NCBI GenBank assembly: GCA_964350415.1
Contig: CAYGJW010000002.1
Span: 1 to 24,581, forward strand
Direction of reading: 5' to 3'
DNA: 24,581 nucleotides
Origin: an uncultured Alphaproteobacteria bacterium
GTDB taxonomy: Bacteria; Pseudomonadota; Alphaproteobacteria; CAYGJW01
Shown here: positions 4,213 to 5,799 of the stretch, piece after piece
Layout of the letters: every line of letters starts with the position of its first letter
Numbering within the stretch: position 1 is the first letter of the stretch
Made by a program: the position numbers and the translations under genes
Notes under the pieces: model-generated
Told to the model about the DNA's origin: nothing
The model's input: the letters and a program-made list of their open reading frames with translations, nothing else
The model's database searches: none

Positions 4213-5799
4213 ATGGCTAAGAATGAAAGCGGATACCGAGTTTTAGCTCGGCGGTATAGACCGAAAAATTTTGATGCGCTTGTCGGCCAAGAAGTGCTTG
4301 TCCAAACTTTATCAAATGCCATCGCCCAAGACCGTGTCGCCCATGCCTTTATGCTGACCGGTATTCGTGGGGTCGGAAAGACAACCACAGCACGAATCAT
4401 TGCCCGAACCCTGAACTGTGTTGGAAAAGACGGCAACGGCGGTATGACAGCCAGCCCTTGCGGTGAGTGCGAACCGTGTGTGAGTATCTTAGGCGATTGC
4501 CATATTGATGTGATGGAAATGGATGCGGCAAGCCGCACCGGCGTTGATGATATTCGTGAGTTGATCGAAAGTGTGCCTTATAAGCCTGTATCTGCGCGCT
4601 ACAAGGTGTATATCATCGATGAGGTTCACATGCTGTCCAAGAATGCGTTTAACGCACTTTTGAAGACCCTGGAAGAACCGCCTGCTCATGTGAAGTTTAT
4701 CTTTGCAACCACTGAAATTCGTAAAGTTCCTGTCACAATTCTATCGCGCTGCCAACGCTTTGACCTGAAGCGCTTAGGCGCAAGCGAGCTTGCGAACTAT
4801 TTGTGCGAAATTGCTGAAAAAGAAGCGGTAGAGCTTGCGCCGGAAGCTGCTGCGCAAATGAGCAGTGCCTCTGGCGGGTCTGCGCGGGATGCGCTGTCAT
4901 TACTTGATCAAGCCATCGCTAGCATAGGCAAGAAGATTGACGATGCTGCTGTCCGGGAAATGCTTGGAACGGTTGATAAGCGCTCAATCGCTGCGCTGTT
5001 TAATTTGTTTATGGCCGGCAAATCAGTTGAGATGCTGGCCCAGTTTGAAAAGATGTACCACGATGGGGCGGACCCGCATCTTTTGCTGCAGGATTTGATG
5101 GACTTTACCCATCTTGTGACAAAAGCCAAGGTGGCGCCTGAGTACACCGAAAAAGATTCGACGCTTTCAGATGGGGAAAAAGCGGCCATACGGGAAGCTG
5201 CGGGTGAATTGTCCATGGCCTCGCTGGCACGGACATGGCAAATGCTGCTGAAGGGCGTGCAAGAAGTGGCCAGCGCGGACAGGCCTGACTTAGCGGTTGA
5301 AATGCTGTTGATTCGAATGGCGCATGTTGCAGAAATGCCAACCCCGATCGAGCTTGTAACAGCCGCAAAAAAAAAAGCCCCTAGCAGCCTGACAGAAGTG
5401 TTGCCGCAAGCTGCAGAAGAAGAGGTCGCCACAGGCCCCACAACTTTTGAAGAAGCGGTGGAACTTGCTAATAGCCATAAAGAAATGTTGCTGGCAGAAC
5501 GTCTGCGGCGTTATATTCGGCCGATTGATTTTTCGCCAGGTAAAATTGTTTGCGCACTCCTGGATGATGCCCCTAAAGACTTGCTGGGGAATTTCTCCAA
5601 AAAGCTAAAAACGTGGACGGGGCAGCCGTGGGAAATTAAAACAGCTTTAAAGAGTGATGCAAAAACCCTATATGAAGAAGTGGCAGCAAAAGAAGATGCT
5701 TTGAAGTTGACGCTTGGGGGGCATCCTGTTGTAAAAGAAATTCAACAAATGTTTCCAGGTGCTGAAATTGGTGACATGATAGAGAAGAAGGCTTCCTGA
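4213..5799 (+). CDS. dnaX: DNA polymerase III subunit gamma/tau
   Basis: YRVLARRYRP, Walker A GIRGVGKTT, Zn-binding CGECEPC, Walker B YIIDEVHML, SRC motif. Start is ATG 4213 or GTG 4207. Confidence 0.98.
   Translation: MAKNESGYRVLARRYRPKNFDALVGQEVLVQTLSNAIAQDRVAHAFMLTGIRGVGKTTTARIIARTLNCVGKDGNGGMTASPCGECEPCVSILGDCHIDVMEMDAASRTGVDDIRELIESVPYKPVSARYKVYIIDEVHMLSKNAFNALLKTLEEPPAHVKFIFATTEIRKVPVTILSRCQRFDLKRLGASELANYLCEIAEKEAVELAPEAAAQMSSASGGSARDALSLLDQAIASIGKKIDDAAVREMLGTVDKRSIAALFNLFMAGKSVEMLAQFEKMYHDGADPHLLLQDLMDFTHLVTKAKVAPEYTEKDSTLSDGEKAAIREAAGELSMASLARTWQMLLKGVQEVASADRPDLAVEMLLIRMAHVAEMPTPIELVTAAKKKAPSSLTEVLPQAAEEEVATGPTTFEEAVELANSHKEMLLAERLRRYIRPIDFSPGKIVCALLDDAPKDLLGNFSKKLKTWTGQPWEIKTALKSDAKTLYEEVAAKEDALKLTLGGHPVVKEIQQMFPGAEIGDMIEKKAS
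5365..5392 (+). other. Candidate slippage/frameshift site producing the gamma subunit
   Basis: GCA AAA AAA AAA GCC contains A10 (5367-5376). TAG at 5382-84 closes the -1 frame and TGA at 5390-92 closes the +1 frame. The site follows the collar domain directly. Confidence 0.7.

What the first reader, a model, noticed from the sequence alone, without database searches (positions are those of the whole stretch)
5365..5392. dnaX A10 run with stops in both shifted frames: Thermus-style gamma production in an alphaproteobacterium
Seen: GCA AAA AAA AAA GCC CCT AGC AGC CTG A. One extra A gives ..KKKSP* (390 aa from ATG 4213) and one fewer gives ..KKKPLAA* (392 aa), versus 528 aa for tau. The site directly follows the collar domain (EMLLIRMAH..PTP). 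Known: E. coli makes gamma by a -1 frameshift at A AAA AAG, Thermus thermophilus by transcriptional slippage on an A9 run, and Caulobacter by ClpXP partial proteolysis. Inference: this lineage uses recoding rather than proteolysis.
Basis: partly seen in the sequence, partly recalled or inferred. Interest (0 to 1): 0.65.

Follow-up and report, generated by a model that had tools for sequence, protein, structure and literature searches.

The report
Conserved poly-A slippage site in dnaX
A run of ten A's in the DNA-replication gene dnaX of this uncultured marine alphaproteobacterium lies exactly where other bacteria split the gene into a long (tau) and a short (gamma) protein; the same run recurs in over a hundred alphaproteobacterial species, so it most likely is a Thermus-style slip site, a known trick that I found no published report of in this bacterial class.

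Summary
Window 5367-5376 is an A10 run in dnaX (ATG 4213, stop 5797-5799, 528 aa), three codons after Pfam domain III ends. One extra A gives 390 aa; one fewer gives 392 aa.

The run is not a by-product of composition. This genome encodes KKK as AAA-AAA-AAA 4 times against 46.7 expected, and dnaX holds the only A10 inside a long ORF. A relative with 96% protein identity from another sample keeps the run and both stops.

An A9-A11 run lies at the same aligned place in 17 of 401 sampled alphaproteobacterial genomes. Stops in both shifted frames lie closer than chance across lineages. I found no stimulatory hairpin or Shine-Dalgarno-like element.

Best reading (about 0.7): programmed transcriptional slippage makes gamma, as in Thermus thermophilus, perhaps with some -1 ribosomal shifting.

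- No RNA or protein evidence could be obtained.
- "Rather than proteolysis" is not shown.
- The window's nearest sampled families lack the run.

This is a new member of a known kind. I found no published alphaproteobacterial case, but this scan has noted dnaX poly-A sites on other DNA before, one of them alphaproteobacterial.

The parts
4075..4172 (+). ffs (small SRP RNA) directly upstream of dnaX, in the usual ffs-dnaX-ybaB-recR arrangement
   Evidence: Rfam RF00169, 61.5 bits, E 1.6e-11
4213..5799 (+). dnaX zero frame: full-length tau, 528 aa. It has an AAA+ module, lid, domain III (aa 243-382), a short linker and the C-terminal tau domain PF12362 (aa 410-521).
   Evidence: ORF list; Pfam
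5367..5376 (+). A10 slip site (GCA AAA AAA AAA), codons 385-388, immediately after domain III
   Evidence: Sequence. It is the only A10 inside a long ORF of the genome. It is kept in a 96% relative. An A9-A11 run lies at the same place in 16 other sampled alphaproteobacterial genomes.
5381..5383 (+). TAG stop read after a one-A insertion or a -1 ribosomal shift; ends the 390-aa gamma (..KKKSP)
   Evidence: retained in L181 although the neighbouring base changed
5390..5392 (+). TGA stop read after a one-A deletion; ends the 392-aa gamma (..KKKPLAA)
   Evidence: retained in L181
5831..6151 (+). ybaB (nucleoid-associated protein), downstream neighbour
   Evidence: ORF; PF02575 on the orthologous gene of L181
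6159..6773 (+). recR, downstream neighbour
   Evidence: ORF; RecR/Toprim Pfam families on the orthologous gene of L181

Best explanation
The A10 run is a programmed slippage site that lets one dnaX gene give two clamp-loader subunits. RNA polymerase transcribing the ten A's sometimes realigns the nascent RNA on the template, so part of the mRNAs carry A11, A9 and so on. Messages with 10 (or 10 plus or minus 3n) A's are translated into tau (528 aa; a change of 3n adds or removes a lysine), which carries the C-terminal domain. Messages with one more or one fewer A meet a stop two or four codons past the run. They give a gamma-like protein of 390 or 392 aa that ends just after domain III. A minor contribution from -1 ribosomal slippage on A_AAA_AAA would give the same 390-aa product.

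Shown: the anatomy, the selection on the run, and its recurrence at the same site in many alphaproteobacteria. Inferred: that slippage occurs, at what rate, and that the short product acts as gamma.
For: (1) Anatomy matches the Thermus case as described in PMC1088944 and PMC5009743: a run of 9 or more A's, tau in one ORF, and nearby stops in both other frames.
(2) The site lies three codons after Pfam domain III.
(3) Such runs are selected against elsewhere in this genome: AAA-AAA-AAA for KKK occurs 4 times against 46.7 expected, and dnaX holds the only A10 in ORFs of 150 aa or more. Only three A/T runs of 10 or more exist in 1.55 Mb.
(4) A relative with 96% protein identity from another sample keeps A10 and both stops despite substitutions around them (also an X4 contig). 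A 69% relative has KKK at the same place.
(5) In an even sample of 401 genomes of the class, 17 have an A9-A11 run at this place in dnaX. Within sampled families the counts are f38 3/3, f30 2/2, f57 3/3, f23 2/3 and f107 2/3.
Of these, 114 are dnaX with the run, nearly all labelled Alphaproteobacteria.
(7) GC-rich members keep it. A 4.3 Mb Hyphococcus genome has only 7 A9/T9 runs in all, one of them here.
(8) Stops in both shifted frames lie closer than in the rest of the same genes: Fisher p = 3e-4 and 2e-3 over 17 cluster representatives.
(9) No stimulators typical of ribosomal frameshifting were found. Flanking RNA folds no better than shuffles (z = 0.89, 0.66, -0.63), and there is no Shine-Dalgarno-like motif upstream.
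(10) A11 variants exist whose tau frame is reached by opposite shifts (L045 by +1 A, L095 and L136 by -1 A). This fits a process that both adds and removes bases.
Against: There is no RNA or protein evidence: no RNA run holding this gene was listed. The organism is the only species of its GTDB order, so conservation within the lineage rests on one 96% relative and one protein at 69%. In the DnaX tree the window sits in a well-supported clade where 24 of 27 families have no run, so the run is neither ancestral nor universal there. The stop distances in this gene alone are not significant (p = 0.16, 0.23), and the pooled test treats related lineages as independent. The large set was selected by the run itself, so it shows recurrence and position, not frequency. 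The sequence alone cannot separate transcriptional from ribosomal slippage.
Confidence: 0.7

Rival explanations
1. Gamma is made mainly by -1 programmed ribosomal frameshifting on A_AAA_AAA (E. coli-like), not by RNA polymerase slippage.
For: The run contains X_XXY_YYZ in the correct phase (GCA AAA AAA), and the -1 frame stops two codons later. Only a tRNA-Lys(UUU) was found in the incomplete genome. Both mechanisms are known for dnaX.
Against: There is no upstream Shine-Dalgarno-like element and no downstream stem-loop. In E. coli, A_AAA_AAA is much less shift-prone than A_AAA_AAG (PMC5009743). A heptamer would suffice, yet the dnaX runs found here are all 9-11 long, although both searches required at least A9, so shorter runs were not sampled. 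The +1-frame stop, useless for -1 shifting, is also closer than chance across lineages (p = 2e-3). A11 variants need shifts in opposite directions.
Confidence: 0.12
2. The run has no programmed role. A lysine-rich start of the linker happens to be encoded by AAA codons, and any slippage is tolerated noise. Gamma, if made at all, comes from proteolysis as in Caulobacter.
For: AAA is the commoner Lys codon in the genome (0.65). Off-frame stops near the run are not significant in this gene alone. Most alphaproteobacterial families lack the run (384 of 401 sampled).
Against: All-AAA KKK is about 12-fold avoided genome-wide. Within dnaX only 47% of the other Lys codons are AAA. A run at the same place and phase recurs in several families, including 57-62% GC genomes with a handful of A9 runs. 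Stops are enriched in both frames. The linker has 1 Gly in 60 residues, so it lacks the Gly-rich stalling tract that ClpXP processing of Caulobacter DnaX needs.
Confidence: 0.1
3. The run is a DNA-level phase-variation tract, or an assembly artefact of a homopolymer.
For: Homopolymers are hot spots for replication slippage and for sequencing error. Some MAGs show A11 with a broken tau frame.
Against: A10 keeps tau in frame with a conserved C-terminal domain. The same length is seen in independent assemblies: the source run X1, run X4, and L181 from another sample, with no indel variants listed. dnaX is essential, so switching tau off is implausible.
Confidence: 0.03

Closest known systems
Thermus thermophilus dnaX programmed transcriptional slippage (Larsen et al. 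2000 PNAS 97:1683; Yurieva et al. 1997), as described in PMC1088944 and PMC5009743
   Same: A run of 9 or more A's on the sense strand of dnaX; tau in a single ORF; stops close by in both other frames; the short product lacks the C-terminal tau domains. Even the 3' context is alike (Thermus A9-GCCTGA, window A10-GCCCCTAGCAGCCTGA).
   Different: The phylum differs (Deinococcota against Alphaproteobacteria). The run is A10, not A9. Here the site directly follows domain III of a short 528-aa tau. Thermus has RNA and protein evidence; this case has none.
Two-ORF dnaX genes with poly-A runs (GeneTack cluster; Antonov et al. 2013, NAR 41:6514, PMC3711429, Fig. S3: Chlorobi, Bacteroidetes, Coraliomargarita)
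   Same: An A10 run at the gamma/tau boundary, with predicted transcriptional realignment. Chlorobium and Prosthecochloris even share A10-GCCCCTGA.
   Different: In those genes the zero frame gives gamma and tau needs the slip. Here tau is in frame and gamma needs the slip. No alphaproteobacterium appears among the nine A10 genes shown in that paper's Fig. S3.
Escherichia coli dnaX -1 programmed ribosomal frameshift at A_AAA_AAG
   Same: The outcome is the same: gamma ends shortly after the shift, downstream of domain III. A slippery all-A heptamer lies in the right phase.
   Different: The E. coli site has an upstream Shine-Dalgarno-like stimulator and a downstream stem-loop. Neither is present here. 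The run here is longer than a heptamer, and stops exist in both frames.
Caulobacter crescentus DnaX partial proteolysis by ClpXP (Vass and Chien 2013; PMC5422525, PMC6677533)
   Same: Same bacterial class, and the same need for a short DnaX form.
   Different: Caulobacter relies on a Gly-rich tract between domains III and IV. The window's linker has 1 Gly in 60 residues and carries a slippery run instead.

Membership tests
Thermus-type programmed transcriptional slippage in dnaX | Homopolymeric A run of about 9 or more on the sense strand inside dnaX | tested here: met
   A10 at window 5367-5376
Thermus-type programmed transcriptional slippage in dnaX | Tau encoded by one uninterrupted ORF through the run | tested here: met
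   528-aa ORF with PF12362 C-terminal domain in frame
Thermus-type programmed transcriptional slippage in dnaX | Stop codons close by in both alternative frames, so that any slip that is not a multiple of three gives gamma | tested here: met
   TAG two codons and TGA four codons past the run. Closer than chance only when pooled over lineages.
Thermus-type programmed transcriptional slippage in dnaX | Truncated product keeps domains I-III and loses the tau-specific C-terminus | tested here: met
   Domain III ends at aa 382; products are 390 and 392 aa
Thermus-type programmed transcriptional slippage in dnaX | mRNA population heterogeneous in the number of A's | not testable with these tools
   No RNA run holding the gene was listed; only DNA contigs could be laid
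Thermus-type programmed transcriptional slippage in dnaX | Two DnaX proteins present in cells | not testable with these tools
   Uncultured organism; no proteomic data available here
Thermus-type programmed transcriptional slippage in dnaX | Run maintained by selection (conserved in relatives, avoided elsewhere) | tested here: met
   Kept in a 96% relative. Same site in 16 other genomes of about 9 families in the 401-genome sample. AAA-AAA-AAA is avoided 12-fold in the genome. Caveat: the nearest families lack it.
E. coli-type -1 programmed ribosomal frameshift in dnaX | Slippery heptamer X_XXY_YYZ in phase with a -1 frame stop nearby | tested here: met
   GC[A AAA AAA], TAG two codons later. 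It is A_AAA_AAA, not the highly shifty A_AAA_AAG.
E. coli-type -1 programmed ribosomal frameshift in dnaX | Upstream Shine-Dalgarno-like stimulator about 10 nt 5' of the site | tested here: not met
   The 5' sequence CCGATCGAGCTTGTAACAGCCGC has no GGAG/AGGA-type motif
E. coli-type -1 programmed ribosomal frameshift in dnaX | Downstream stem-loop stimulator | tested here: not met
   The 60 nt 3' of the run fold at -13.7 kcal/mol against a shuffle mean of -16.1, z = +0.89
Two-ORF dnaX (tau requires recoding; Antonov 2013) | Zero frame terminates just after the poly-A run and tau continues in another frame | tested here: not met
   Tau is in frame here. The arrangement does occur in some other alphaproteobacterial MAGs (L045, L095, L136).
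Caulobacter-type ClpXP partial proteolysis of DnaX | Gly-rich tract between domains III and IV that stalls ClpXP | tested here: not met
   1 Gly in the 60 residues after domain III. Sampled families without a run have a median of 13% Gly there. The requirement is as stated in PMC6677533.
Caulobacter-type ClpXP partial proteolysis of DnaX | C-terminal degron recognised through the ClpX N-domain, with gamma fragments dependent on ClpX | not testable with these tools
   Needs biochemistry or genetics

The most novel reading that the evidence does not exclude
Poly-A slippage in dnaX is a widespread, repeatedly gained (or repeatedly lost) way of making gamma across Alphaproteobacteria. It largely excludes the Gly-rich linker used for ClpXP processing in Caulobacter. 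Some gut lineages elaborate it into two tandem slippery runs that would give two gamma forms. If so, the class would hold at least two interchangeable solutions to the same need, and cultured carriers (Hyphococcus, Marinicaulis) would allow a direct test of why cells need gamma.
Probability: 0.45. Interest if true: 0.6.

Novelty: new member of a known kind. Interest (0 to 1): 0.45.

Why it matters
Why bacteria keep a short gamma form of DnaX is still an open question, and three unrelated ways of making it are known. In Alphaproteobacteria the only described route is ClpXP proteolysis in Caulobacter. The data here suggest that many alphaproteobacteria use the Thermus-style poly-A slip site at the same domain boundary instead. 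These include close neighbours of Caulobacter such as Marinicaulis and Hyphococcus, and a large group of gut lineages. That strengthens the case that gamma itself is under selection. It offers cultured organisms in which a synonymous AAG-interrupted allele could test the need for gamma. It also matters for annotation: such genes yield two products, and A11 variants are not pseudogenes.

Tried and rejected
No RNA run was listed, so read laying could only use DNA contigs.
- DNA of the 69% relative P0002: it is not on record. A metagenome scan found only a 45% relative.
- Closer relatives in GTDB: none exist, because the genome is the only species of its order.
- Stimulatory RNA structure: none found.
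- An A_AAA_AAG heptamer in G035 dnaX (L003): it lies inside domain III with no nearby -1 stop, so it was rejected as a gamma site.
- Single origin of the run: not supported. The DnaX tree needs at least 2 and most parsimoniously 7 changes, but deep branches are weak.
- Codon and amino-acid make-up across the run in the 114-gene set: not used as evidence, because that set was selected by the run itself.
- Larsen et al. 2000 (PMC26496) is not held. Its content is cited through PMC1088944 and PMC5009743.

Full report
**1. The observation**

Window 5365-5392 reads GCA AAA AAA AAA GCC CCT AGC AGC CTG A. The A run is 5367-5376, ten bases. It lies in the frame of the ORF that starts at ATG 4213 (an alternative GTG is at 4207) and stops at 5797-5799, giving 528 aa.

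Pfam identifies the protein as DnaX:
- AAA+/delta-prime-like module
- lid domain
- DNA_pol3_gamma3 (domain III) at residues 243-382
- the alphaproteobacterial tau C-terminal domain PF12362 at residues 410-521

The run covers codons 385-388, so it begins three codons after domain III. One added A gives ..AAKKKSP and a stop at TAG 5381-5383 (390 aa). One removed A gives ..AAKKKPLAA and a stop at TGA 5390-5392 (392 aa). The gene sits in the usual ffs-dnaX-ybaB-recR arrangement.

**2. Is it more than chance?**

The genome is a 1.55 Mb, 43% GC, 94%-complete MAG. It holds 27 homopolymer runs of 9 or more bases, 24 of them A or T. Four runs reach 10 or more, three of them A or T.

- In 1,113 ORFs of 150 aa or more, Lys is AAA 65% of the time. 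Even so, the tripeptide KKK is written AAA-AAA-AAA only 4 times against 46.7 expected.
- dnaX has the only A10 inside such an ORF.
- Within dnaX only 47% of the other Lys codons are AAA.

So the genome avoids such runs, as Baranov et al. (PMC1088944) described for bacteria in general, and dnaX is an exception at a meaningful place. The two nearby stops, taken in this gene alone, are not beyond chance (p = 0.16 and 0.23 against other positions of the same gene).

**3. Relatives**

The genome is the only species of its GTDB order, so close comparison is thin.

- A protein 96% identical, from another sample (L181), keeps A10 and both stops. This holds although the codon after GCC changed from CCT to TCT and several nearby synonymous sites differ.
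- A seawater-metagenome contig (run X4) also spans the run without indels.
- A 69% relative (P0002) reads ..ELVTHSKKKTSD.. at the same place. Its DNA could not be retrieved.

*Wider sample.* In an even sample of 401 genomes of the class, I searched for EMxLxR codons followed 35-65 nt later by A9. This found dnaX in 17 genomes including the window's, in about 10 families. In most of them the run starts exactly 50 nt after the EMxLxR codons, as in the window. All carry A9-A11 at the domain III boundary. Within families the counts are:

| Family | Genomes with the run / sampled |
|---|---|
| f38 | 3/3 |
| f30 | 2/2 |
| f57 | 3/3 |
| f23 | 2/3 |
| f107 | 2/3 |

The reversed-pattern control gave hits only in a few genomes, nearly all of them small (0.9-2.6 Mb).

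Of these, 114 are dnaX. Nearly all are labelled Alphaproteobacteria:
- many gut MAGs, including some labelled 'Azospirillum sp.'
- Marinicaulis
- Hyphococcus
- Parvularculaceae
- a 'Caulobacterales' MAG
- a Rickettsiales MAG
- three Bacteroidota
- a few oddly labelled gut bins (Lactobacillaceae, Bacteroidaceae, [Ruminococcus] gnavus) whose DnaX is 47% identical to the window's, like the other gut hits

This set was selected by the run, so it shows recurrence and position, not frequency.

*Features that were not part of the pattern.*
- Stops follow in both shifted frames, usually within 1-10 codons. Over 17 representatives of clusters at 70% identity they lie closer than elsewhere in the same genes (Fisher p = 3e-4 for the -1 frame and 2e-3 for the +1 frame). 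Independence is overstated here.
- GC-rich carriers (57-62% GC) keep A9. A complete 4.3 Mb Hyphococcus genome has only seven A9/T9 runs, one of them this one.

*Tree.* In a DnaX tree of 48 rows the run-bearing lineages are not one clade. At least 2 changes are forced by well-supported branches, and 7 is the most parsimonious count. The window falls in a 99%-supported clade in which 24 of 27 rows have no run. The run in this lineage may therefore be an independent gain, or the trait is lost often.

One of the no-run comparison rows (L021 = G039) comes from an unpublished genome. It serves only as one of 27 comparison rows, and no claim depends on it.

**4. Mechanism**

The anatomy is that of Thermus thermophilus dnaX as summarised in PMC1088944 and PMC5009743. 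A run of nine A's makes RNA polymerase produce mRNAs with variable numbers of A's. Tau comes from messages with 9 or 9+3n A's. Every other message ends at a nearby stop and gives gamma, at about 1:1.

Four points favour transcription over ribosomal shifting here:
- The dnaX runs found here are 9-11 long, not a bare heptamer, though both searches required at least A9.
- The +1-frame stop is also kept close.
- There is no Shine-Dalgarno-like element upstream and no structure downstream (z = +0.89; the upstream and spanning folds are also not significant).
- A_AAA_AAA is a poor ribosomal shift site in E. coli compared with A_AAA_AAG.

In addition, some MAGs carry A11 with the tau frame reached by opposite shifts: L045 by +1 A, L095 and L136 by -1 A. 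This is what one expects if both insertions and deletions are frequent. These could also be homopolymer assembly errors.

A contribution of -1 ribosomal slippage cannot be excluded. It would give the same 390-aa product, and only tRNA-Lys(UUU) was found in the incomplete genome.

I could get no RNA evidence. No RNA run holding the gene was listed.

**5. Proteolysis**

Caulobacter makes gamma by ClpXP stalling at a Gly-rich tract between domains III and IV (PMC6677533, PMC5422525). The window's linker has 1 Gly in the 60 residues after domain III.

Across representatives, families without a run have a median of 13% Gly there, often in tracts of 5-8 Gly per 12 residues. Run-bearing lineages have a median of 2.5% (Mann-Whitney p = 2e-5). 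This complementary pattern is suggestive. It is confounded by GC content and by relatedness, and a few no-run families lack both features. So 'recoding rather than proteolysis' is plausible but not shown.

**6. What is known**

- Poly-A recoding in dnaX is established for Thermus.
- It was predicted for Chlorobi, Bacteroidetes and Coraliomargarita in the two-ORF form, where tau needs the slip (Antonov et al. 2013, PMC3711429, Fig. S3).
- My literature searches found no report for Alphaproteobacteria. Recent work there still lists only proteolysis for the class.
- This scan has noted dnaX poly-A sites on other DNA 149 times. These include one alphaproteobacterial A11 case (e1-4494865) whose follow-up reached the same reading.

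**7. Verdict**

It is a new member of a known kind. Interest is moderate: it extends a known recoding device to a class where another route was thought typical, and it points to cultured carriers for experiments.

Noticed in passing
L060:codons 384 and 407 of dnaX; likewise L062, L073, L084, L087, L090, L109, L120-L124, L129, L132, L145, L161, L163, L179: Many gut alphaproteobacterial dnaX genes carry a second A9/A10 run 11-24 codons (mostly 17-24) after the first, in another phase (GAA AAA AAA AAT). It too is followed at once by stops in both shifted frames. This tandem slip site would give two gamma sizes or raise the gamma share.
   Followed up: partly
L045 (G400), L095, L136, L059 (G228): A11 (or a second A10) variants in which the zero frame stops right after the run, and the tau C-terminus continues in another frame. 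In L136 the N- and C-terminal matches lie in frames 2 and 3. These are either two-ORF dnaX genes within Alphaproteobacteria or homopolymer errors in MAGs.
   Followed up: partly
linker after domain III, 27 no-run against 18 run-bearing DnaX representatives: Gly-rich tracts after domain III are common in families without the A run and nearly absent in those with it. GC content and relatedness confound this.
   Followed up: partly
whole genome G000: KKK is written AAA-AAA-AAA only 4 times against 46.7 expected, while alternating AAA/AAG forms are over-represented. This is a clear genome-wide avoidance of slippery A runs.
   Followed up: yes
G000: The window's genome is the only species of its GTDB order. 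The best named DnaX matches (Dongiaceae, Pseudemcibacter, Zavarzinia) are only 47-51% identical. It is a 1.55 Mb marine-biofilm MAG.
   Followed up: partly
L072, L081, L091 (Chitinophagaceae, Saprospiraceae MAGs): Bacteroidota dnaX genes of the one-ORF type have A10 at the same distance from the EMxLxR motif, also with stops in both frames.
   Followed up: no
L066, L089, L101: Records labelled Lactobacillaceae, Bacteroidaceae and [Ruminococcus] gnavus carry a dnaX that is 47% identical to the window's, like the gut alphaproteobacterial hits. They are probably mis-binned or mislabelled contigs.
   Followed up: no
window 1550-1558: A T9 run lies elsewhere in the window. It is one of the 24 A/T runs of 9 or more in the genome. 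I did not examine it.
   Followed up: no
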